Below, in pieces: positions 11,467 to 39,422 of a stretch of DNA of 64,000 nucleotides. The stretch covers positions 44,392,001 through 44,456,000 of the forward strand of contig OZ260665.1 of the NCBI GenBank assembly GCA_965285935.1. The letters run 5' to 3'. Each line of letters opens with the position of its first letter. Position 1 is the first letter of the stretch. The notes below the pieces were generated by a model, which did no database searches, was not told the DNA's origin, and worked only from the letters and a program-made list of their open reading frames with translations. The DNA is from Ophelia neglecta. Its lineage: Eukaryota. Position numbers and translations under genes: made by a program.

Positions 11467-14158
11467 TTATGCATTTTTGAGTTGTGAATTGTGTCCATCC
11501 ATTTTGTACATTTCAATGCCAGTCTCTGGGGTGCGCAATGAAAATATTACTGGTATTTCACTTAAAATTGGAGTCCTTTGTTGCAAAAATTTAATCCAGG
11601 AAGCAAGTGAATCTTTACTTCCTGTTCCTGTGATACACATGCTGAGAATTGTACCATCTTCCTGCTCATGAATTGTAGGCTGTTTTACTAACTGACTTTC
11701 TGGTTTCTCCTTAAAGGAGAAAAGGTCCCAGTCAAAATTTGCTGAAAGGAAAAACAATGGATGACAGAATTTTCAACACCAGTGAAAATCAAATTCATTT
11801 GTGGTGTGGTTAATTTAAATGCAGTTTACAGAATAATTGAATTGGTCCAAAATAAAATATAAAACAAATCTGGTGATTAATCAAAAGTCTAAGTTTAAAA
11901 AAAAAATCCAAAGACAATATTGACTTTGTAAAATATCTACATATTTTATTTGTACTGTACACCAGAAAATATTGGCATGCTGGAAATATTGGAAAGTTTT
12001 GGGAAATTTCTTTGGGTGACAAAATTTTCTGAAAAAAGTATACATGTATGTTCCTGGCCTGGATTTCCAAATGACAAATAAGTCCTGTGGCAATTTCTAC
12101 CAAAATTTCAAGCAGTCAAAATATTCTGGACCAAAGGTTTTTTTTTACTGAATGTACAATGACAACTCACTATCATCCTCATCCATCTCTATGTCCTTTT
12201 GATGAAATGTTTTATATGTGCTTGTCTCATCTGACTTGAGTACAAAGTAGACAAGGCCATGTTGCCTCAGCCACACATTAAAGCCTCCCTCTACTATCAG
12301 CGGCCTGTCTGGCGGATGCTGCAGCAAAAGCTCTTCTTGAGATGGACTCTGTGCACTGACGATGAAGGTCTTGTCCAATGTGGTTTCTGCATCCAGATTT
12401 TCACACTGGAATGTCAATGCCAAGTGTCATTTTCAGCAAATATAAAATGCTGAAGAACTTTGCATAAATACTGAAGCTTGTTTGCATATGTACTGCTTCA
12501 TAACAGGTACCAGATACAGTGTAACGTTTTTGCCGGAAAGCAGGGCCAGATAGTACATGTATATGAGAGAGTTAAATGATATATTTGCCGGATTTATTAA
12601 GATTCTTCCATGCTCCCATAATACTATGCAATTTGAATTATTTTATTGCAAAAATATTTTCATTATGACAAGTCTGAATTAAATCAGAACATTTAACTCA
12701 TACCCACATCATCTTTATGATCAGTGTTGCTTTAACCAGTGTGAGGTCCCCCGATTTTGGATTTTACCCAATCCCAGTCCAAACTAAGGTTATGTTACTC
12801 TTTAAGTAAAAGTGGAATTATTTCAAATACCTTTCCCTGTTGTAAAGAGAACACAGGCAAGAGATAATCCCTTATATAAAGTTACGCAAAAAAAATCAAA
12901 TGAATGCAGTCTGGTGAGTGCTGGTGCTGTGAATGATTGTTTAACTTAATAAAAGGGATATTCAATGTGGGTCACTCTTTGTTCAATTTTTCTATTTTTT
13001 TGGGGAAAAAAATCTAGTAGAGAAAACATTCATGACGAAATTTCAGCAATACTTAAAACTTTGTTTCAGCTGAGAACACTCTCAATTGATAACAAAACTT
13101 CATGTTAAAAAAAATTATACCTTTAGATTAATTAAAATATTTCACTCTTCAGGGAATAACTATGTATAAACATCAACATAGCTCACCTGAAAAACAGATA
13201 TAGTGTTTTTAAAATCAACACTCATTCTTTTTAGTGCTAATTTGGCCAGTTCTATAGGACAATCAGGCACTTCATGTGGTACTGGGTAGGGGTTGAGGTG
13301 CTTGAACTTTGGCATCCAATACATCATCCTTCTATACTTTCTAAATACATGTCCTTCGGTTCCAAATATTTCCCTCAACTGGAAACCCATTCTGTCATCA
13401 GGTACCACTCCTTTAAACATAAATCTGAATATTGCACATTGAATTAAAGTTGAACATGGATAATTTTCCGATTATGAGTATAAATGTTCGTTTTCAACAT
13501 AAAACATAGCAAAACTCAGAAGTAAATAGATGTCCTCAATCAAGTCCAAAATATAGTAGGCAAGCCATAAAAAGCATGTACACTACGAGTGATATCAAAA
13601 TAACTTACCATTTTCTTCCATTTTTTCCAAAATATCAATGCAACATTGTTGTTGTTTGGGATAATGCATAAACTCAATCTCCCATACACTTTTTGGGATC
13701 ATTTTCTTTTTTGGAAACAAGTCAATGATTTGACGATAGGACTCTATGTCACGGTTCACTTTGAACTCATCCATATATTCAACTGCGGCATAGATGAACT
13801 CCACATGTCCCCGTCGCTGAACTCCCTGATGTTTAAGATATGTTTGAACAGCTCGGAGATATGTTTCTTTGTCTTTTTTCTTCTTTGCAGCCTTGTCAAA
13901 GACTTTGCCAGATTCAGAGATCAGCATTTTTTCCTTCTTTTCATGTTCTGGGTCGCGGGCATCCAAAAATTTATGCCTTACCCAAAGCTTACAATTGTTT
14001 GCTTGTGATAACTTAACCGGTTCTTCCCTGTTTGTCAGGAATGATTTATTTTGCTTGTGTTTGTATGCACCTTGCACATAGAGAGCCCTAGATGCAATAG
14101 TTTGGCATAGAATATGATGTTTGGAAAGAAATGGTCCAACATGTCTGATTGAATTCAT
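11467..14158 (-). CDS. ECSIT: Evolutionarily conserved signaling intermediate in Toll pathway (mitochondrial complex I assembly factor), ~427 aa
   Basis: Coding exons 14158-13609, 13410-13187, 12405-12171, 11741-11467, with GT-AG boundaries and matching phases (1284 nt). Motifs RRGHVEFIYAA, MHYPKQQQC, MMYWMPKFK, IVSAQSP, HEQEDGTI. The N-terminus resembles a mitochondrial presequence. An acceptor at 14171 implies an upstream non-coding exon. Confidence 0.93.
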
Positions 14159-16858
14159 GGCTGGAATTTTCTGTAAAAAAAGGATAAATATTTTTGCTGA
14201 ACCACAAAAAAAATTAATTTGGCAGCCATAGCCCTTAACACATACAAAACATGATCAAATGAGCAGCTATTTGAAACTGTCAATGTTAGTTTTTTACACA
14301 GCGAACTCGGACAAAACTGGACCCCAAATGACCTCTACCCTGCAGTAATACTAGTAACCAGGAAATGACAGCATACACCACAATCTGGACTGAACATTCA
14401 CATTTTACAAGTTACATATACCAGAAGCTGGTTTAAACAAAATCCAGACATATGTTTGATATAAAGGTGTCAAACTGTGGTAATTGTCGACCAGTTTTTC
14501 TTCAGAAGTCTTATGGCTTATGATCTTGAGATAGAAAACGGCAGATTTGTTTTGTATTGTATTGTTTACTTTTTCATTTTGCTTTGGTTACTATTGCATT
14601 GCCTTGTGGTGATTGTCATTACCATGTAGCATTCAGCCACAATATTAATTTTCAACATTTATATCAGTGATTTTGTAGCTGTTGTTATTATCGCAGAATT
14701 TTATTAATTGGCTGACCAAGGAATGCTCTGACATTCTAGTATGCCACACAATTGATCTGCAGTTACCTCTCTCATAGAGCAATACATACGCTTGTAGATG
14801 GGGTCCTAATGTTAGTCTAATAGATTCATCATGATTTATTTAAACAAATTGTAGGAACCAAAAACAATTTTGGGGATCTTTTGATAAAAATAAGGTGTCA
14901 CTTAATATTGCAGTGTATGCGAGGAATCTCAAAAGAATGAAGCAGGCAGCTAAAGGATATTAAATAATTGGGCAGCCTAGAGTAAGATACAGATTTATAG
15001 CCACAGTTGGTGTTCAGAGTACATGGCAAGGTAGGCAGACTTCACACCATTAGGCCCTAAACTTTTCTGGTTTATAGATCCATCAGCCAACATTTGTTTG
15101 CCTTGACTGAGGTGAATATTTTGAATTGAACCAAATTCCAATAAAACCGAGAAGCAGGCCTGCCAGTAGAATAAATACATATATATATAGTATTGTTTTA
15201 AAATGGACATTTGTCATGATCAGTGGCCTGCACAGAACAACACAATTAGCCTAAGTCTATAAGATCAGCGTTGGCCAGTAAATAAAGTTGTGGAATACTT
15301 TCACAGCTTTGGGCAAATAGCTATAATGTACTTATGATGTCCAAGAGCACATACAACATGTGGTAACCAGCTCTGTTTGCTGCATACAATTATCATTTTA
15401 TAGGTATTTTGTATATATAACTGAATATCCTCTTCAACATTTCTGGTTGGGTATCAAGAAGAAATTCCCTAGCTGGGTATCAAGACGAAATTCCCATTTC
15501 TGCATTTCCTTTTTCTCACAGAGTGTTCTGCATTTGGGAATCCCAATGCCAGAATTGTTTTGAAGATAAATATACCACCCCCAACTTTGGATAAAGTGCT
15601 TGCAACTATTTGGATATTTAAATTTTTAAAAGATGTATGGAGCAAGGCATGCCTGTTTTAGATGTTTGACATGTAGGCTGTGCCGCCAGTGTATGGTAAA
15701 ACACCAATTACCGTGTCCAATGAGAAGTAAATGTGATCCAAGCATACATGCTGACAAATGGTAACTTTATATGTTGAAACTAAGCAAATTTGACAAAGTC
15801 AAGTATGCAAACTTAAGATGTTCATAATGATGTCCACGTGGTATTACTTGATTATAAAAAATTGCCAGTTGATCATGAACAGAACAAGAACTTGAGAGGC
15901 AATATAGTGCAATACTATTCTATTATTGCTTAAAGAATGTATTTTGAACATAAGAATGACTTTAATTGATATGGACACATATTTTATACCTCTTTAAGTC
16001 ATAATTTGTCTACTATTTGGTGTAAAATATGTGGGATTTCAACTGCGGTCAAGCAATGAGAATATTTTGAACTGGCTTGCATGCCCGGGTTCCCCATGAG
16101 CATTTTTGCTGGATAGGTACATGCACTAAACTATTATATGTGATTTTCGATTGGATGTGTACAACCTTTGATCAATTGTAAAGTTAGAACTGATTGACAA
16201 TACTCAATGTACATAGCACTTTGTGTATATTGGCTGATTATTCTGTGACAGTGACAAAACAAACTGAGTTGAGAGCACCTGTGGTTGAGATAGCCTAAAG
16301 TACACAGTTTTACATGGATAGGGGAGAGTAGGTAGAGAAGGGCAACCTTGTTTTAAAGTATCATTACTATAGTATGGAAAAGATTTTAATAGTTATAATG
16401 ACAGCTTCCACTAAGCAATTAGGCTTAACTCATAAACATACATTAAAAGGGCTGGTTCCTCAATTCACCAGAAGCCCCATGATAAGTGAATGGGTTGGCC
16501 AGTAGAAGTAGTAGAACCATGCTATATAATCCCGTATTTGCTCAAGTGTTTGTTTTCAGGCTGCCAATAGGTGAATTTTTATGCAATTTATTCACCTGGC
16601 TATCCAATGAATGCCCTTAGGGACCCCGAGCAAATGGAAAGTTTCTCAGCAATTCAAAATTGTGACTAAGGACCTAGGGGTATATGTCAGGGTTTTCTAT
16701 GTAAAATAGAAGACACATCATGGTATATTTCATTTCTGTTAAGCAGAAATAAATCAATTTTCTTCATTAAATGGCCCCATCTCTAGCCTTGGAAAGCATG
16801 GATGGGCCATTAGGTCAATACATATGGACGATTTCAATGTGCAGACTAACAAATGAAA

Positions 16859-17320
16859 GGTGTCCAGTCAACTCGCGCGGGTACTAACTCGCGCGGGCAA
16901 CAACCTGCGCAGGTGCCAGGTCGCTCGAGGTTATTTTCACGGTTATTGTGTTTGGATGGTTTACTACATTGCTGTGGTAAAAACTTATTTGTGGTCATTT
17001 TACCGCCAGATAGATCTCGAGACTTTTTTAAAATATATATTCGCTTTAGTAAGTTTAGTCACCATAGGGCTTCGTTGGCAAACAGGCGGACTTGGATAAA
17101 AGGTTACTACGTTTAGGGGCGAGTAATGGTTTCTATTTATTTCCATCATATTTACAAACCATAATGGGAGTTATGGATGTCTTGTCAACATGTCAAACAT
17201 ACTAAACTAACATTTAAATAAAACAAGCATGTGCAAGTTGCCTGCTGCGCAAGTTGCCTGCCGTGCGAGTTGGCATAGAATGTCGTGCGAGTTGGCACCC
17301 GCGCAAGTTGATCCCGGACC
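16859..17320. mobile_element. TIR MITE with 8/9-bp TSD and CAACTCGC subterminal repeats
   Basis: Direct repeat AAATGAAA at 16851-16858 and 17321-17328. Left GGTGTCCAGTCAACTCGCGCGGGTACTAACTCGC versus right (reverse complement) GGTCCGGGATCAACTTGCGCGGGTGCCAACTCGC. Confidence 0.8.
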
Positions 17321-17419
17321 AAATGAAAATATGACCTAACAAATGAATGTCTCCAAAGCATTTTCTTTTCATAAATACCAGAGGCATGGCAATTAATGTA
17401 TGTGAGTGGGAGTAGGGAG

Positions 17420-17922
17420 GGTGTATCTAAACTACGAAATGTTCCGAAATGTTCCGAAATGTTCCGAAATGTTGCCAAAATGACCTAAAACAATTGGAAC
17501 CGCAAGGGTTTTAGGTGATATTCATCAGGATTGGGTGTTTCAGTTACGTTTTAAGGCATATACGATTATATTTTGGTGCAAAATTACGAAACTAACCTGT
17601 TCCAACCCATGGCTAATGTTTACATTTCGGCCATGACACCTGGGCAGGAAGTCGCTGCTGGACCACCAGAGGGCGTAAGCGACGCCGCCACCAGCAGCGA
17701 CTTCCTGCCCAGGTGTCATGGCCGAAATGTAAACATTAGCCATGGGTTGGAACAGGTTAGTTTCGTAATTTTGCACCAAAATATAATCGTATATGCCTTA
17801 AAACGTAACTGAAACACCCAATCCTGATGAATATCACCTAAAACCCTTGCGGTTCCAATTGTTTTAGGTCATTTTGGCAACATTTCGGAACATTTCGGAA
17901 CATTTCGTAGTTTAGATACACC
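17420..17922. mobile_element. Near-perfect palindromic (foldback) Mutator-like MITE, 10-bp TSD
   Basis: Arms 17420-17661 and 17691-17922 are exact reverse complements except for one extra 10-bp CGAAATGTTC unit on the left. Spacer is 29 nt. TSD GAGTAGGGAG at 17410-17419 and 17923-17932. Ends GG...CC. Confidence 0.92.
17663..17675 (+). promoter_or_regulatory. CTCF-consensus motif in the MITE spacer
   Basis: CCACCAGAGGGCG matches the CTCF core CCASYAGRKGGCR at every position. Confidence 0.55.
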
Positions 17923-18152
17923 GAGTAGGGAGGGAGGGGGGGGGACATATTTCTTTATATATACATCTTGGATTTTAAGGTAGTCACTTATTTCTATAAA
18001 TTAGTACATTTTCCATAACAAGTATTGGATCATAGTTCATTTTTTCAAGGCAAAAATAGTCAATTATCCTTCTATTTTGTTTAATTTTAATTATCGTCAT
18101 TTACTTATTTCAATAACTAAATATAAAGAGATAATAATGTGTTCGGAGTTAC

Positions 18153-18349
18153 CTTCAGATAATAATTTTGTTGCAGTGTCCTATCAGTCAAGCGCAAAAG
18201 AAACAAAAATAGTTCTAGTTTTAGCGTACAACCATTCTTGCCCTTGTCCAGCAGTTCACATGGCGGAAGTTTTAATTTGTACCAGTTGCCGATAGATTGC
18301 GCTTGGAGTTGAGTTGATCTGTTTTCAGAAGTATTCTGCACAAAGTAGA
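18153..18349. promoter_or_regulatory. Putative bidirectional promoter region for ECSIT(-) and HAP40(+) with YY1/ETS composite motif
   Basis: ACATGGCGGAAGT at 18258-18270. Minus-strand donor AAG|GTAACT at 18152 is a candidate end of the ECSIT non-coding exon 1. HAP40 ATG is at 18350. Confidence 0.5.
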
Positions 18350-21300
18350 ATGGAACGAGATGCCGACATTCTAGGAAAATACAGAACAATATCCAATAAA
18401 TTAAAGAAGTGAGTGGTGTATTTTACCTATTAAAGTTTTCGTATTCATTAGCACTTTTTCGAATAAACCTTTCAAGATAAGCTAGTTATCTTGATCAGTA
18501 TATCTTGAGCGATAATAAGTCAAATGAAAAAAACTGGTGGAGGGCGGGGGGGTGGGAGGTGGGGGGGGGGGGATCCCACGTTTAAAAACCTGACTATACT
18601 CCGAAAAATTCGCACGCCCGGCTTGTGTAATATACATGTTTTGTAGGCTTTCCTATGTTAAATGAAACAATGAAAAACTGGCCAACCTATAATTAGGGAG
18701 CAGTTAGTATTTAACATGGGGGGAGGGGGGGTGGGGGTAATTTTTTAAGGTAGACAAGTACTGTATTGCAATTCACGTAATATGTTTAAATCATGAAAAG
18801 GATGTTGTTGGCAAATGGAACTTGACATTAAAAGATTATTCTTTTTCATTTAAGTGAGGAGGAGGGGGCGGGGTGGATTGCAATAACTATGATAACTTTG
18901 GCTATGCTTTTATTGTTTTTGTTCAGGGGTTTTACATGGTTTTCAACGCATAAATGGTCATAATAGCGGGCACCTGGCAGGGGAGCTATCAGTACCTATT
19001 TTTACGTCTTGGGTTTGACGTGATCAAGATTTGAACCCCAACCTGCCACTTATGCCCTGTTACACATAAAAAATAATTTATACATGTATTTTCATTTTGT
19101 TTAAGGCGTTTCTTGAAGAAACCCAATGTTGCCGAAGTAAGTGACCAATTTGGTGAGTATCATTACAGAGATCTTGTTGGAATATAGCAATTGTGATTTT
19201 TCTCAGTTAATTGCAGACAAATATAGCCAGAAACTTAACTCAGGTCAGTGACCTGCACAAGCTACTGGCCCATTTGATCTTAAGTTTATTACCAGTTTGT
19301 TTAATTGACAGTGCAAAATCCAGGTACCAAAAAAAATCTGATAATCATTTTGGGGCATGGATTAATTACTTTTGTTAAAAAATAATGCTTGTTACATATT
19401 TCTTTCATGGCCATAATACAGGGTCCCTGGCAAATGCAGGAAAATAAGTTGCCTTGCAAATTTTCATTATTTGTTTTATTATATTTAATCCTTTAGCTGA
19501 GATTATGGTTTAAAATATCAAACAATCAATTTTTGTCTTTTTGTAGGGTCCCTTGCCAAAACTCTGAAGACCCAAGAGTGTACTCAGTATGCAGGGTTTT
19601 GTTGCTTGGCCCAAGCTAGGTAAAGTCATTGTAATTCAATTGATAAGAGCTGTTATTTACTCATCAATTTATAATTATGTTTGTTCCTCTCTGACTTAAT
19701 TTCCCCCTAGAGTTTTGAACAAAAATTGAGTGGGTATGTTCTTGCCCCCTATCGGAAATAATGGGGAATATAATCAATGAAAATAATTATACCATTATCA
19801 TTAATGAAATTGTATTTTTACAGTGTTTAATAGCAACGTTATGTAATTCAGATGTGAACATACACTCAACAATGCTCCTGGGGAGGCCCAAGCACTCACA
19901 GAGGCAGCCAGATTATTCATAGAAGGGGAAAGGGCAAATAATGAATTGAAATGTCCAGGTTTTGAAGAACATTTGAAAGCTGCCATTAACTGCTACAGCC
20001 ATGCTATCAAAGTGAGTTTTATTTATATTTAAGTATAAAATTAACGGGATAACAGTCAAAATATATTTATGTCAAAGGGCAAGACAGTACCAGTCTACAT
20101 AAATATTATTCTTATGACTTGCAGGTTCATATTGAAAACAAACACATGGCTCTTGCTGCAGCATTATGTTTGGAGCTAGGAAATGCATTGAGATCGCAGG
20201 GTAAATCAGGCGAGGCAATTCAGCACTATCAAAGAGCAGCAGAGCTTCAGTTCCAAAACCCACTGGACTGTCTGACTGCATTGCAGCATGTAGCATCATG
20301 CAAAATAAAAACTAATGACTTTGAAGGAGGTTTGTCTGTACTTACAGAAATGTCCTACCTTGTACAAGAAAGAGGTGGGACAATGTCTAATGGCAAACCA
20401 ATAGGCGCTTTCTGTGATATCCTTGCAAGATGTGAGGTCACCAGAGTTCTACTGCTCATGATTTTACAGGTAAGGGCTAATATAAGCTACTTAAATGAGA
20501 TAATTTTATCCTAGAACTTAACTTGAAAGTAAAACAAGGTGTATTAAAAGAAACATATTTTACTGAATTATAGCTTTTCAATTCTTAACCTTTTTATGAA
20601 ACCTAATGCATGTGGCAGTCAAATGGTAAATCAATTTAATTTCTACCAGAGAGATACTAAAATAAAAAAATGTTTTGATTGTTACAGCCCACTCCTCAAA
20701 GGATACGACCAGAGCATGCCCAGACCCTGGAGAAGTATGCCTGGGAATCTATCGAGGAAGACACTCCAGTGGCATGTCTCAGTGAAGACCTTTTCCTGCT
20801 TTTACAATCTGTCGTAGTAAGGACCATGGATATTTATCTGTAGAGTTTAAGAAATCTTGCTTATAAAAATTTTATTCAATATAAAAATATAAAAATGTTT
20901 TAATTGTAGGCGTATAATGTTAATTAAGATTGAAGCTATTTTAATTCCTCTTTATACATTTGTAAGATCAAGGCAGTGCTCTTTTTCATCCAAAATCAAT
21001 TTCATTCAACAAAAAGAGGTGTTTAGTTTTAGGCATGCTGTTAATTAAACTTCTGCTCCATATGAAATTGCCATAATTTCCTATTTATAAATGCCTTTAC
21101 CCACAGGTGATGTATCAATTTAAAAAAAAATTTAACTTGGCCTACATTTTCAAGGTCAAATCATTAAATTGACTGTTTATCTTTTCTATATTGTGGAATT
21201 TGCTAAGACTTAGAAATGCCATGGACTCATTTAGGAAACCATTTAGTGCTCATGTGATATTGTCTTCTCATGTAACTATGGCTTATGCTTTTACTAAAAA

Positions 21301-25775: not shown

Positions 25776-28700
25776 TTAATCTGTCTTTAGTGATTTGCCA
25801 TTATCTACAGATGTTGGCTTGCTGGAGTCTGTTAGTCCTGTTCTAATCTTTCTAGGTTTAAATAAATATCCTATAGCAATAAATACAAACATAAAAACAT
25901 GTGTAAAGAAATAAATGCTGGTATAATATCGCATTGTGTCATGGTAGGATAGGAGTAGAAAGCCCATACACATGTAGTCAAAGGCTCGGCAACGCCAAAA
26001 CCAGGCCACCCAATCATAGATAATTTGCTGGTTAGGGTTTTTACTATCACGAAATGCTGCAGCCATGAAGTCTTCAGCCATTAGAATTGGGGGTACAGTG
26101 AGGAAGGCGATATAATATCCTGGGTGTACTCCATGCCAAAAAGCACTCACAGACATTGTTATGGCCACCCTGTAATATAATTTTTTTTTAAATTTAGATA
26201 CATGTACTTCGTAATATAGACTTACATTGGTGCAATTTAGTTTGATTTGTACATTGAAGCTAATTATTTTGGCTACTTTACCTGATGGGACCACTTTTTA
26301 AGGTAATCCTCCTATAAACATTGAATGCAAGCCAGTATTGTACTGTCATGTTCCACGCTTTCATTCCTTCTCTCACAGTGGTAGACAATTCACAACCATA
26401 CTCATACACATTGTGAACAGTTTCAAAGTCATATGCTACTCCTTCAGGTGACTGACTTTCACTAAGAAAAGACAGAAAATTTATCTTAAACTTTGAAAAA
26501 ATTATTCAAAACAGACTACAAATCAATCAGAGCTTGGCAGCAGGCAATTTAAAGTTGAAATGCAGTGGTTGGCATTTCACAATGTTTAAATAATTTTTAT
26601 ATACTGTAAAGGAGAAAATGTTTGAGTGGGTTCAAATTAACAATACTGACACTTTGTCTGTTTTTAAACCCTTGCAAACAGATAATGTAGGCCCTTTGTG
26701 AACATGGGAATACAATATTTGTGAGTTTTAATTTCGCAACAGAGTTTTTTTTTGTTTTTTTTTGCAAAAATATTGTGAAAACATTTTTAATATTACAGTT
26801 GCTGTGCCAGAGCTGTCTAACACATATTACCAGCTGCTGATTCATCCTCATTTAATATCATATTGCAATCTCCTATGCCATGAGACAGGGTTGAAATTTA
26901 GCTATTTCCAATTCATGTTAATAAATTGGAAAGACAAAGGTCAAGTCCAAGGTCACTTTGTAGATCCCTTTAAATGTTTTCTTCATAGATATGAGACCTT
27001 GTGATTAAAAGTTGAGCATACATGTATATAGATGGGTTGAAAGTCTGTATTTAAAGATGGCCAAACTAACACATTTACTCCTGATCATAAAAAGGGATCT
27101 TGTTGCATTTTTCACAGTAAGCAATTACATGTAAATCAGCCAGAAAATATTGTGCCTGTCCTACTGCCTGCTGTCTTTTCTATATAACAGTGATTCTTTT
27201 CTAGACCGTAAAGATAGGGGGTTTAAGGCATATCTGAGCATTGCATATTCATCCTAGCAGTGCAGGATACTCACCATTCCTTAAGGGCTGTCAGATTACT
27301 GGGACCTACGCCTACTCTAGGCTTACTGGCAGCAGGATAGGCCCCCAAGCCGGCCATGATGCACATAGCTTCAGACATCAGCCATGCTAGGTACAGTCGC
27401 ATACGAAACATAAAGAACATGGGTGCCATGTAGAATAGACGAAACCAAAATGGTTCTGTGTAAAAAGCATCACTCCTGGCATACTGCAAAATAACAAAAT
27501 AATATGTCAGTAGATAAAGTCCTTTCATAGACTTATGAGGAATATTGTTTATTAGTTATGTACATTAATAACTGAACATTTGTTGAGCCTGAGAGTGTAC
27601 TCCAAGAAAGAACAGGGATACAGTGATCTATATTTTAACTTATAGGTACAGGCTAGAAATACAGTCATGCTTGATCTTATCATAATTAAAGTAGTTCCTC
27701 CAATTGCTATGGAGCCAAAAAAAACTGCCTCCATCATAATACCTATACCTATTAAGCTTATTCACTGCCGGCTTTTCTGTGAGCAAAGCCATGTTGGATG
27801 AGATATATCATCAAACACAGTGAATGAGTAAACATTGGGGGCTTGAATAGAGATTATCCTAATTACTCATCAATTTGAGCAGAAGCGGATCTATACTATA
27901 TTTATCACAAAGACTATACATATATACCTCAATATCTTATCACAAATTGGTCACTAGTAGTAAGAGTAACATAATATATGCTACCCCAAAAAATTTGGAT
28001 AAAATAATTTTAATATTAAAAGTTAGCTTACATCAATATTGAAGTACATGGAGCCAATAAAGAAGGCTACAGCATACAGAGGTAACCGTTTAAGTCTTCT
28101 CATGGTGGGTGTTAAAGTGTCTATGTTCCTTATGTTCTTCGTGTGCATCATGTCATGATATGTTCTGTACTTATAATATGGCCCTGCAGCATTGAGAACA
28201 AAGTTTAATGGTACTGCAAAAAGAGTTTCAAAGTCATTAATTTGATAACTAAAGCTTGCATACTGAAAATGGACAGTTTCTTTAATATAAAGAACTGCAT
28301 GACCTGCCAAATAATATTTCTCATTTAATAACCTACAAAATGAGTGCTCATTTTGTCCAAAACATTGTAAGGTGGGGGGGAGGGGGGCAGTGGCAGGCAG
28401 AAGGGTCAAAGAAGTTATGTTTGAGTCTCCACCCACACACAGCAATTTCCACATTCTGTTCTCCATTAGAGTCCCAGATGGCTGTCCACCAATCTCATCT
28501 TTAACTGCCAGAAATTCCAACTCCTTGCACTTCTTAAAGCAATTGTGCTCCCTGTTATTTATATTTTTAATGGCTCTGAGTCTGCTCAATGGTTCTTTGA
28601 TCCTATAAGTGATTCAATATATTAATTTGATCTGTTTTACTATGTGTGCCTCACTTCACCATGTGACATGTGACATAACTTGCTTTCTGGCAGGTTGTCT

Positions 28701-31700
28701 GCTTTGTGGCATTGAGCCTGTTTAGCTTCAAGATATATGCTCTACTCCATTGACACATTTTACCTTACCTCTGCTATTCAATCCATCAATCCACTCTGTC
28801 CTTTTTTTCACATGCACATTACATTGTGTTTTTACTTTGCTATAAGGAAGGGAGTGGGGGGGGGGTCTTACTTCCAGTTTTTACCATGCCGAGATGGGAG
28901 GGTTCAAACTTTCAGTTGTATCACCTCTCCTCCATTTTGTATCACGTCCAAAGGGAGGTGACAGCAAAATTGTACTTGGATAATGCTCTACTCCCTTAAC
29001 CTTTTTCTTACAATGATACTATATCACATAATTTTTTATTTCATATCTGATCATACCTAGCGTTGCAGGGCTTTTAGTTACTAATAAACAGTCGATGGCT
29101 ATTTGGGGGGAATCATCTCTTACATGAAATTTTTTCTTTATCTTTATAAAGAAGATTTAAATCCTGTTAGTGGGAAGAGGTAAATTGTTGAATGAGAAAT
29201 CCTTCCTCATTTGTTATTGCCTCATGCAAATGATTTCTGCAGGTATGATTCCTACCTGTTAATAATCCTATATAGCAAAAGCTGTAATGCAGCTGCTCCA
29301 CACAGGATGGGGAAACATTTTGATACTCATTTTGCAATTTGATTTTTTCATCTTTAGGATTTTTCTTAGCTGCCTCTCTATTCACATATGTGTCGTGGAT
29401 TTCAAAAGCAAGTCCCACAAGCTGAAATTATTGTGTGCAAATTAGTATATGTTACAAGTAAAAACAATTGTTTTTTAATTTTTATACACCTGTTCCCAGT
29501 ATAATATATTATATGGCATGATGGTAGTAAGATCACAGGCATGGTGGAATCAAACTAAATCCATAATAATGATTTCTTCAGATACAAGTGAATACTAGGC
29601 CTTTATCATATATCAGTTTTTTACAAGATAGCTAAATAGTTGAGCACTACTACAAAGTAGTAGAAAAAAAAGAGATACAGAGCGGTTCTTACTGGTACAT
29701 AACTCCCAATAAGCACATATGGCAGTGACACACTATTCCGCAATATATAAATAATGGGAGGTCCAAAATCCAAGCAAACCTCCCATCCTTGAAAAACATG
29801 TTCAAATAAGCTTATTTCCGACAAGCACAAATCAATTAAAAGATTGCAGTTGATAATTCCCCCATTCTTTCTGTCAAAAAAACACATGTCTGACATGGGT
29901 CTTCTGGCAAGGAATTTATATAAGAACAAACTTGTGTCTACATTAATGTGCATATGACAAAATCAAAAAACATAGAGAAGCATGTAAATCCTTGTGCTTT
30001 GTGAAAACTTATTTCCTGCATATGACCATCTAATTATCATCAACAGGATTTTATTAGCAGACACAAAAATAGAAGGCTGAACAGAAATATTACTTACTTT
30101 AAGCGTTAGAAGCAGTTGAACTGCATTGGCATGAGGAAGAACTTTTGGCAAACCCAAATAATGTGTTAAGCGGAAAAATACTATGTACCCAAAGCACCAT
30201 CCAAAACTAATCCAGTGGCATATTCTGAAAAGAAAGAAAAAATTGATATATCTATGAATGTTCTAGAGAATGAAACAAGTCCACAGTGACACATGCAGTG
30301 CTAGGGATGAACATACATGTACATGTATGCCCTGCAGAGAGGGACCCGGCAACGTATTTAGCAGAGAATGCGTTAATAAATTAGTGAGATAAAATCTTTT
30401 CCGTTAAAAAAAATGATTAAGAGATTCTTCTCTATTTCAATTACACCACAGCCACTATTTCTTAGGGTGCAGATTAAAAGCTCACTTCTTGATCCTCCTG
30501 GCTATATATGGCAGTCCTCATAGGAGGTAGTTCTTCCATAGGAGTCCTCTAAATAGGACCCTTTCCTCTTTTTAACCTTTTAGTAACTGTTTGAATGTGA
30601 CATTGTGACTTTTTAAAAATCATCAGACCTGTCACTATAACACATATCATTAAATGGCACCCAGCTATTACCTTACATATTATACACTATATGTATAGTA
30701 GTATTTTTGTTTGTAATTTTGCTCAATTTAGAGAAGTTGGGAAATAGGCCAATCTGAAATATTTTCCAATGTTATAACCTTATTTCTGGCTCATATTGTA
30801 GTGGCATTCTATATCCAGTTCATCAAATTTGCTACATTACTATAACTTCATACCGCAAAACCAATATTTATTATTTCTTTTGAGGTAGAGGGGTAATATT
30901 GGTATGCTTTGGGGAGCAAGTTAAAGCAAAGCAAGCGAACTAATGCACATTGCACTTATTCTTATACAAGCAAGTGGTATTTGGGGCATATAACAACTCG
31001 TGAATATTACGCACTAGTGTACATTTAATTCCTAATCATCTGAAATTCTTATTTTGGCAAATTTATCCATGTTTACAACATTTTCGTATCACTTATTATA
31101 TCTTGCTATGAGTGCTGCCCCCATAGAGAACTGTGACCCACAGTTCAGTTCAGGCAGTGCGCAATTCTATGGAGTTCACTTTCCTCCTTGAAGTATTAAC
31201 AAAGACGGGAGAGAGCAATCGTATAATTTAGCAAAAAAAAAAAAAACACAGATAAAAGCACAGTCATGTTATCAGTAGTTTATGTGTAGATTTAAAACCT
31301 GCAAATGATCCTGTCTTGGCACCCCTTTATTGTTATTGATGCATGGTTTAGGCCAATTTCGGTGGGTTTCAATGTTTTAATAGTATAACCTTTTAATAAC
31401 TAGAAAACCAAAATGTTCACCTTTTCCCTACGAACCAAAACGTCTGGGCTGACATGTTCTGGGACTAAAATGTCTGGCTACCCTATATTAACAGTACTCG
31501 GGGACACAGGTACTCATTACTGAGTACTTGAGGGGTGGGTTACTGTCAGGCAAGCTAGTATGTAGCCTGCCTGACAGCTACCCCCCCCCCCCCCCCGCCT
31601 CACGGACTGAGTAATGAGTACCTATGCCTTGGAACCTTTATTGTTGATTCCCTGTGTTACCAATCCCGAACAACCCTCCCTATCACAAACACCCCCCCCC

Positions 31701-32041
31701 CACCACCACCACCCCCCCACCACCCCCAACCTTCTACCAAATCAATACTCCCCTGTATCTGGGGACATAAGTTTATTAATTATCACATATCCCTTTAATA
31801 TTGTCTGTTGGAAATTGTAAAATTACCTTGGACTAAAGAGAGAAATAATTGCAATATTTCCAAGCACAGTTACCACAGAATGTAATCCGTCATGCCTGCA
31901 AACAAGGATAATTAATGTCACTCCCACTGCTGTGGAAACGTACTGTTTTTTCACTGGACAATCTATTTTTTTTACAATGTGTCCAAATGGTACAGAGAAC
32001 AATAGAAGACATCCGTAAATCACGTCATCCTGGAAGCCCAT
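25776..32041 (-). CDS. MBOAT7: Lysophospholipid acyltransferase 7 (MBOAT7/LPIAT1), ~480 aa
   Basis: Exons 32041-31827, 30224-30098, 29421-29256, 28183-28032, 27483-27275, 26461-26282, 26169-25776 (1443 nt, phases consistent). Motifs HANAVQLLLTLK, YIGLLTGPYYKYRTY, AGLGAYP, WNMTVQYWL and the catalytic-His motif SAFWHGVHPGYY. C-terminal KSLKTD resembles a dilysine-type ER signal. Confidence 0.94.
31508..31623. mobile_element. Small palindromic MITE-like element in the first coding intron of MBOAT7
   Basis: AGGTACTCATTACT...CTGTCAGGCAAGCTA-gtatg-TAGCCTGCCTGACAG...AGTAATGAGTACCT, with poly-C expansion in the right arm. Confidence 0.6.
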
Positions 32042-32179
32042 CTTCCTTCTTTTTTTTTTGCTGACAGTGTGCAAAGGGCGATAAAAGAGTATTCCTTGCC
32101 TGGTAACAGGAAGCACTTTTTGGTGGACTGGTAAATCAGTAGCAAAGAAGTAGTATCAAAAAAGCCTTTATTTTTTTAC

Positions 32180-38771: not shown

Positions 38772-39422
38772 ATGGAACATCATGAAATGAGCTCGGTTGA
38801 GGCCTCCATGAAGCCAAGTTACTACAGGACAGCGTGGGAACTTTTAAAATCCTTCTGGTATGCCTTGAAAATAAACTGGACAAAACCTGTATACGAAGGT
38901 GCCCCATACTATGACGCCCAGTTAATGTCTCTACATGGAAAGGAATGTACACTTTCAGAATTTGTCAGCGAAGGGCGTCCCCTGGTCGTCACCTTCGGCA
39001 GCGTTAGCTGATATCCGTTCGTCGATGTTTTGGAGGACTTCTCCACTATATCGAAACAATTCTCGGATATTGCCAATTTTCTTTTAGTATACATAGAGGA
39101 GGCTCATCCTATTGATGGCGCCTACTTTCAGAGAGCGACCAAAATAAGGCAACATCGCACACTATCTGACAGAACAGCTGCAGGAAAAATCCTTATGAAC
39201 AAATTTCCTGACCTACCAATTCCGCTGGTACTCGACAACATGGCCAACTCCGCAAACCAGGCTTATGCTGCCCTGCCTATGAGAGTCTATATCATAGAAA
39301 AGGGCATCATAGCTTACGCCGGGGGAATAGGGCCTTTCTTTTATAACTTGGATGACGTCCGAAAATGGCTTCAACTGTACACGGAAAAGGTGGACAACAA
39401 AGAAGGAAATCAAATCTCCTAA
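38772..39422 (+). CDS. Iodothyronine deiodinase-like selenoprotein, 216 aa from ATG 38772, Sec at TGA 39009-39011
   Basis: ORFs 38760-39011 and 39030-39422 are in the same frame, separated only by TGA in RPLVVTFGSVS-U-YPF. Further deiodinase motifs: FLLVYIEEAHP.DG, IRQHRTLSDR, DNMAN...YAALP.R.YII, GGIGPFFYN...VRKWL. SECIS lies downstream. The true start is uncertain because the ATG follows an acceptor-like TTTACAG. Confidence 0.92.

What the first reader, a model, noticed from the sequence alone, without database searches (positions are those of the whole stretch)
17420..17922. Palindromic foldback transposon whose only unique cargo is a CTCF-consensus site
Seen: the 503-bp element consists of two exact inverted arms (242 and 232 bp) plus a 29-nt spacer ACCACCAGAGGGCGTAAGCGACGCCGCCA. 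The spacer contains CCACCAGAGGGCG, a full match to the CTCF core CCASYAGRKGGCR, overlapping a mini-hairpin GGCGT-AAGCG-ACGCC. Established: CTCF is bilaterian-wide and its sites act directionally, and retroelements are known to spread CTCF sites in mammals. Inference: a young DNA-transposon family may be distributing oriented insulator or loop-anchor sites. The spacer is essentially the only part of the element that gives it orientation. This copy lies about 600 bp from a putative bidirectional promoter.
Basis: partly seen in the sequence, partly recalled or inferred. Interest (0 to 1): 0.72.

Follow-up and report, generated by a model that had tools for sequence, protein, structure and literature searches.

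The report
Mini-transposon carrying parental CTCF-like motif
This is a young, non-coding copy of a Mutator-type jumping element whose central match to the binding site of the genome-organising protein CTCF is a leftover of the parent transposon's own end, where it likely helps control the transposase gene; more than 40% of the copies have lost it, so a role in spreading oriented insulators for the host is unlikely, though binding was not tested.

Summary
The element is 505 bp (17419-17923) with an 8-bp target duplication, one of about 69 near-identical copies of a non-autonomous Mutator/foldback MITE; an empty site exists in contigs of public runs. The host has a protostome-type CTCF gene, and the CTCF consensus occurs 2772 times against 105 for the reversed control. 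The 'spacer' is not captured cargo. It is the inner end of the parent's 5' inverted repeat, about 0.94 kb upstream of a PHD-OTU-MULE transposase frame in two loci. The motif recurs, pointing outward, in the repeats of two sister families whose transposases are 56% identical. Within this family 29 of 66 complete copies lack the motif and the centre flips relative to the ends. In the older sister family the motif decays as fast as its neighbours. Best reading: a regulatory module kept for the transposon's own use, likely CTCF-bound, and dispensable for jumping. Host-selected oriented loop anchors are unsupported. DNA transposons carrying CTCF sites are known in mammals and zebrafish, and this scan noted CTCF-like transposon ends before in another genome (e1-9027547, unchecked).

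The parts
17411..17418 (+). left copy of the 8-bp target-site duplication
   Evidence: L001
17419..17661 (+). left arm (G-end inverted repeat), with four 10-bp subterminal repeat units at 17435-17474 and the conserved GCCATGACAC box at 17630-17639
17662..17690 (.). 29-nt unpaired centre; read on the minus strand it continues the right arm as the inner end of the parental 5' inverted repeat
   Evidence: 25 of 26 bases match the repeat end upstream of the L193 transposase frame
17663..17675 (+). exact match to the CTCF core consensus; binding untested
   Evidence: invariant core columns across families
17691..17923 (-). right arm (C-end inverted repeat), three 10-bp repeat units; outermost base not complementary to the left end
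17924..17931 (+). right copy of the 8-bp target-site duplication
   Evidence: empty site with one target copy in contigs of X1 and X2
13598..14170 (-). context: first coding exon of ECSIT (start codon 14158, splice acceptor just upstream); the element probably lies in its first intron (about 14171-18152)
   Evidence: Pfam ECSIT_N; splice signals read from sequence; no RNA test
18350..20511 (+). context: 5' part of a HAP40/F8A-like TPR gene, head-to-head with ECSIT
   Evidence: exon at 20134-20481 matches HAP40 chains in PDB, E 3.6e-22; first exon inferred

Best explanation
The element is a young non-autonomous Mutator-like foldback MITE, and its CTCF-consensus site is the inner end of the parent transposon's 5' inverted repeat, where it likely serves as a host-CTCF site of the transposase promoter. 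Shown: structure, 8/9-bp target duplications, copy number, homology of the spacer to the sequence between the inverted repeat and the transposase frame, conservation of the motif across three related families, and its loss in a successful subfamily. Inferred: the MITE arose by internal deletion and arm copying and is moved in trans by a related MULE transposase (its exact partner was not found); the module of box, motif and downstream AAGCGGATGTAAA box is the promoter; CTCF binds it to keep the promoter open or shielded. In the MITEs the motif is a passenger: not needed for jumping, and decaying after insertion. Single copies near promoters, such as this one, may still bind CTCF and have local effects.
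For: Ends and TSDs: 65 of 66 complete copies have an exact 8-bp (28) or 9-bp (37) duplication, as reported for the mosquito MULE Muta1 (PMC5225508). Parent link: L193 and L212 carry a sister-type inverted repeat ending in the motif about 0.94 kb before a transposase frame; the L193 frame of 1094 codons has weak PHD, OTU and MULE hits and is 56% identical to the L191 protein, which passes the MULE cut-off. Longer copies of this family (L026, the 547-bp type) continue from the motif into sequence 84% like the parental leader in L304. Conservation across families: the box and the core of the motif are invariant or nearly so in families A, B and C, although A and C repeats give no blastn match to each other; complete family-C element L229 has three one-mismatch motifs in each 402-bp repeat, all pointing outward. 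Host: CTCF orthologue with 75 of 94 identical residues to the human fingers 3-6 by my count of the alignment, and a YDF motif. Dispensable: 26 copies of the 486-bp subfamily lack the motif yet sit at separate sites and are as young as the others. Literature: MULE repeats contain transposase promoters (PMC6446971); CTCF motifs lie mostly in promoters in an annelid (PMC7854359); invertebrate CTCFs bind more promoter-proximal sites (10.64898/2026.10.19.759930).
Against: No binding or expression data. No autonomous element with this family's own ends was found among about 60 transposase loci fetched or by the internal-sequence search. L193 lacks the outer part of its 5' repeat and has no 3' repeat within the stretch read. 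In family C the motif lies in both repeats, and in the L207/L219 clade a one-mismatch motif lies on the 3' side only, so a purely promoter role is not the only fit. Only 3 one-mismatch motifs were found in the ends of 19 other MULE elements (0.2 expected), so it is not a general MULE trait. The base after the 13-mer is T in families A and B, whereas 11 of 20 non-family sites have G or C there, so affinity may be modest.
Confidence: 0.6

Rival explanations
1. One reading: the family spreads oriented insulator or loop-anchor sites that matter to the host's chromosome folding.
For: Perfect consensus; CTCF present with a YDF motif; 25-fold genome enrichment of the motif; 22 of the first 30 exact CCACCAGAGGGCG sites lie in repeats of this clade; 479 exact box-plus-motif matches genome-wide; sister family B often carries a back-to-back divergent pair. 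Precedents: MER20 (PMC9902604), HATN9_DR (PMC9341505).
Against: 29 of 66 copies lack the motif; the centre flips (21 forward, 16 reverse relative to the G end). This family supplies 41 of 2772 consensus sites (1.5%). In family B the motif differs from the majority at 47 of 741 positions against 63 of 1368 for the neighbouring box, and only 8 of 47 changes are ones the consensus tolerates. 0 of 20 other consensus sites sampled were in this clade. Echinoderm boundaries show no motif orientation (PMC13317027); loop-extrusion blocking is reported as a vertebrate property (10.64898/2026.10.19.759930). Inverted repeats force a divergent or convergent pair, so divergence alone is weak evidence.
Confidence: 0.1
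2. The motif is conserved because the transposase or another zinc-finger factor binds it; the likeness to CTCF is incidental.
For: It is conserved together with a neighbouring box that is not CTCF-like, lies in both repeats of family C, and is tandemly repeated in some copies (L104, L229), as transposase sites often are (recalled).
Against: The 486-bp subfamily jumps without it. The subterminal 10-bp repeats are the likelier transposase sites (inference from the Muta1 structure). The match is exact over 13 positions in a genome rich in this motif.
Confidence: 0.2
3. The motif has no function at all and survives only by common descent of the repeats.
For: Neutral-looking decay after insertion; loss in one subfamily.
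Against: It persists between families whose transposases are 56% identical and whose repeats otherwise barely align. In family B the inner 60 bp vary by 4-7% against 9-14% for most outer 20-bp blocks, though subfamily structure confounds this.
Confidence: 0.1

Closest known systems
Animal MULE/foldback transposons: Muta1 of Aedes aegypti (PMC5225508, passages read) and Tm1 of Meloidogyne (PMC3169594, passages read)
   Same: 8- or 9-bp target duplications, inverted repeats over 100 bp with short subterminal tandem repeats, many non-autonomous derivatives; Tm1 also has asymmetric outermost ends.
   Different: Here the arms make up 94% of the element and the asymmetry is one base. No CTCF motif is mentioned in the passages seen.
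Rehavkus / NOF-FB group of Mutator-related elements (PMC6446971, passages read)
   Same: The related coding element L193 has a PHD-like N-terminus and a minisatellite right after the frame, the two traits given for Rehavkus. An Atlas cluster named after the NOF-FB protein scored 0.80, a lead only.
   Different: No tree was built; PHD, OTU and MULE hits for L193 are below the Pfam cut-offs; the MITE itself codes for nothing.
Transposon-borne CTCF sites in vertebrates: MER20/MER91B and hAT-Charlie in humans (PMC9902604), HATN9_DR in zebrafish (PMC9341505); passages read
   Same: A DNA transposon family carries and disperses a CTCF motif.
   Different: Those are backed by binding or footprint data in animals with oriented loop extrusion. 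Here the host is an invertebrate, binding is untested, and the motif is a conserved part of the inverted repeats of a MULE clade.

Membership tests
Non-autonomous MULE (Mutator-like) MITE | 8-11 bp target-site duplication | tested here: met
   8 bp in 28, 9 bp in 37, none exact in 1 of 66 copies
Non-autonomous MULE (Mutator-like) MITE | long inverted repeats, often with subterminal tandem repeats | tested here: met
   233-243 bp arms with 10-bp repeats
Non-autonomous MULE (Mutator-like) MITE | multicopy, homogeneous, non-coding, with empty sites | tested here: met
   137 exact ends; 0.07-0.26% mismatch within subfamilies; only 85-codon open stretches without a family test; empty site in X1 and X2
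Non-autonomous MULE (Mutator-like) MITE | ends shared with a MULE transposase-coding element | tested here: inconclusive
   Homology to repeats of MULE-coding L193/L212 and shared modules with L191/L229, but no coding element with this family's own ends was found
Rehavkus group (for the related coding elements) | PHD finger in the transposase and minisatellite before the 3' repeat | tested here: inconclusive
   PHD E 0.005, below cut-off; about 100-bp minisatellite after the L193 frame; 3' repeat not found; no phylogeny
Functional CTCF site | host encodes CTCF with conserved DNA-reading fingers | tested here: met
   L093: 161 bits over human CTCF 320-413; fingers 7-8 best match CTCF in PDB and are 79% identical to a moth protein
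Functional CTCF site | match to the core motif | tested here: met
   exact 13-mer, using the consensus given in the finding; no weight matrix was available
Functional CTCF site | CTCF occupancy in vitro or in vivo | not testable with these tools
   needs gel shift, ChIP or CUT&Tag
Host-co-opted insulator or loop anchor | motif kept by selection after insertion | tested here: not met
   family B: motif no more conserved than the adjacent box; 30 of 57 arms with the region still match the consensus. Family A is too young to test.
Host-co-opted insulator or loop anchor | boundary or loop at insertion sites, dependent on orientation | not testable with these tools
   needs Hi-C or Micro-C on filled and empty alleles

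The most novel reading that the evidence does not exclude
A clade of animal Mutator transposons has built host CTCF sites into its inverted repeats, pointing outward at both ends, and uses CTCF to keep its transposase promoter open or to insulate itself. Its MITEs have scattered hundreds of single and back-to-back CTCF sites, some still polymorphic, giving a natural experiment on whether CTCF orientation matters in a protostome.
Probability: 0.3. Interest if true: 0.7.

Novelty: new variant of a known kind. Interest (0 to 1): 0.42.

Why it matters
Transposons that carry CTCF sites are documented in vertebrates, and usually discussed as raw material for the host. Here the motif can be traced to a conserved position in the transposon's own ends in an invertebrate, which suggests why a transposon carries it in the first place. 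With-motif and without-motif subfamilies of the same age, and filled and empty alleles, would give matched controls for asking what CTCF does outside vertebrates, an open question (PMC10658182). The single copy itself is an ordinary MITE insertion.

Tried and rejected
Autonomous partner: long copies of this family (L022-L024) and one-ended copies (L025-L029) hold nested insertions or are truncated and show no transposase of their own. The MULE-like hit inside family-B element L171 belongs to a nested element. The transposase next to copy L017 is only a neighbour. Merlin, which also has 8/9-bp duplications (recalled), was considered but not searched once the MULE link appeared. The 10-bp duplication seen at first was rejected: the family shows that one base belongs to the element. 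The mini-hairpin was rejected: 6% by chance, and one stem base differs in the parental sequence. Assembly artefact was rejected: arm sequence is present at high depth in all three runs and copies have distinct duplications. Metagenome scan for box plus motif: 11 hits, none within inverted repeats, read as chance; so I could not test animals that lack CTCF. No RNA holder listed. A homolog search with the CTCF fingers was crowded by poly-zinc-finger proteins and gave one useful hit among 120 listed; the host's phylum was not determined. A recalled link between CTCF motifs and MITEs in amphioxus was not found in either version of that paper (passages only, supplements not read). PMC10760456 was not relevant.

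Full report
Observation. The sequence at 17420-17922 is as described: arms of 242 and 232 bp that differ only by one 10-bp repeat unit, a 29-nt centre, and one exact match to CCASYAGRKGGCR at 17663-17675, the only one in the window. The strand folds into one long hairpin. The motif appeared in 19 of 200,000 shuffles of the centre, while a 5-bp stem appeared in 6% of 5,000. The consensus is the one given in the finding; no weight matrix was at hand.

The family. The 17-base terminus occurs 137 times in the 762-Mb genome and never in the reversed control; 69 of these ends start with an extra G. I fetched all of them: 66 two-ended copies and 5 single ends. The true element is one base longer at each side, and the outermost bases never pair (35 G...G, 31 C...C). 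Target duplications are 9 bp in 37 copies, 8 bp in 28 and inexact in 1. Arms differ from their subfamily majority at 0.07-0.26% of positions (59 copies in the three main groups, longer or irregular ones left out). Contigs of two of three public runs join 17421 to 17936, an empty site with one target copy. All three runs are one sample of one study, they are contigs rather than reads, no contig spanning the filled junction was among the listed pieces, and slippage across a long hairpin could give the same join; polymorphism is therefore likely but not proven.

The centre varies. Three main versions exist: a 505-bp type (24 copies, 22 with the motif), a 547-bp type (14, all with it) and a 486-bp type (26, none with it), plus 2 others. 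In all, 37 of 66 have the motif, 21 forward and 16 reverse relative to the G end; 4 of the 5 single ends also have it. The motif-less type is as numerous and about as young as the others, so the motif is not needed in cis for jumping.

Where the motif comes from. Back-to-back pairs seen in the genome-wide list led to an older sister family B, in which the motif ends each arm and points outward. A third family C has 402-bp repeats around a MULE transposase (L191, PF10551 above cut-off; L229 with a 9-bp duplication) and three one-mismatch motifs per repeat. A search with that protein found L193, a 1094-codon frame 56% identical over the shared part, preceded by a B-type repeat that ends in the motif about 0.94 kb before the first methionine; L212 has the same layout. 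25 of 26 bases around the finding's centre match this repeat end. Longer copies of the finding's family continue into sequence like the parental leader in L304. An alignment of eight ends shows the GCCATGACAC box and the motif core as the shared columns. The spacer is thus the parent's repeat-to-leader junction. The features fit Muta1 and Tm1 (PMC5225508; PMC3169594) and, for L193, the description of Rehavkus (PMC6446971); all three were read as passages. No coding element with this family's own ends was found among about 60 transposase loci fetched.

Is CTCF plausible? The genome encodes CTCF (L093): 161 bits over human fingers 3-6, 75 of 94 residues identical by my count, fingers 7-8 79% identical to a moth protein, and a YDF motif upstream. 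This points to a protostome-like invertebrate; the phylum was not determined. The consensus occurs 2772 times against 105 for the reversed control and 119 expected. Of the first 30 of 426 exact CCACCAGAGGGCG sites, 22 lie in repeats of this clade; of 20 other consensus sites that I picked from the first 100 listed, none does (both samples come from one chromosome). The box-plus-motif pattern has 479 exact matches. The finding's own family supplies 41 sites, 1.5% of the total.

Selection after insertion. In 54 loci holding family-B copies (43 from the list of terminal matches, a few of them first fetched for the motif, and 11 incidental), 69 arms were anchored on the box; 57 retained the motif region and 30 of these still matched the consensus. 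The motif differed from the majority at 47 of 741 positions, the box at 63 of 1368 and the linker at 7 of 285; 8 of the 47 changes were tolerated ones. The anchor is mildly favoured by the way arms were chosen and copies are not independent, but there is no sign of host selection on the motif. Among the ends of 19 other MULE elements only 3 one-mismatch motifs were found, 0.2 expected, two of them in one related family.

Position. The copy lies between ECSIT (minus strand) and a HAP40-like gene (plus strand), probably in ECSIT's first intron, with the motif 584 bp from the presumed shared promoter. This is inferred from splice signals; no RNA run was listed.

Mechanism. I infer that the motif is kept by selection on coding elements, most likely as a CTCF site in the transposase promoter, and rides along in MITEs. 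MULE repeats contain promoters (PMC6446971). CTCF motifs are mostly promoter-located and not directionally arranged in an annelid (PMC7854359, passages). Echinoderm boundaries lack motif orientation (PMC13317027, passages). A preprint reports that loop-extrusion blocking is encoded in vertebrate CTCF and that invertebrate orthologues bind more promoter-proximal sites (10.64898/2026.10.19.759930; abstract, passages and section 7). It also notes a terminal cytosine preferred by invertebrate CTCF; without the figure I cannot say whether this motif has it. Amphioxus boundaries show a slight excess of convergent pairs, so orientation outside vertebrates is not excluded; for Spiralia the data are thin (PMC10658182, passages).

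Novelty. DNA transposons that supply CTCF sites are known (PMC9902604; PMC9341505; passages). Six searches listed no paper on CTCF motifs in MULE repeats or invertebrate MITEs; the library lacks most subscription papers and Repbase, and no supplements were read. An earlier, unchecked note of this scan describes CTCF-like motifs in fossil transposon ends in another genome (e1-9027547). Verdict: a real but ordinary MITE copy; the interesting part is the conserved CTCF-like module in the repeats of a MULE clade. New variant of a known kind, interest 0.42.

Noticed in passing
window 16859-17320: A second, unrelated high-copy MITE with an 8- or 9-bp target duplication lies about 100 bp left of the element; its ends resemble those of the MULE-coding element in L183.
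   Followed up: partly
G000 whole; The CTCF consensus is about 25-fold enriched (2772 against 105 reversed control, 119 expected from composition), including tandem arrays such as 13 copies at about 42-bp steps in L049 and 5 at 30-bp steps in L047.
   Followed up: partly
L024:620-1130 and L028: A different small element, nested in two copies of this family, carries a one-mismatch CTCF-like site near one end.
   Followed up: no
L022 and L024 nested element; ends like those of MULE-coding L194: Another MULE-type element has a two-mismatch CTCF-like site in both arms, again pointing outward (read).
   Followed up: no
all 66 complete copies; also families B and C: The outermost base pair is always mismatched (one end starts with G, the other with C) while the centre inverts freely between the arms.
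   Followed up: partly
L155, L052: Copies of this family have inserted into another copy of the same family and into a family-B copy.
   Followed up: no
window about 18150-18410: ECSIT and a HAP40/F8A-like gene are head-to-head; the predicted ECSIT donor site and the HAP40-like start codon are only about 200 bp apart.
   Followed up: partly
L193:2589-5870: An open frame of 1094 codons with PHD, OTU-like and MULE similarity beside a truncated 5' repeat and no visible 3' repeat; it could be a stranded but intact transposase gene.
   Followed up: partly
window 25779-32155 (-) and 39012-39419 (+): An MBOAT-family gene and a frame that looks like an iodothyronine deiodinase (recalled likeness, not tested).
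   Followed up: no
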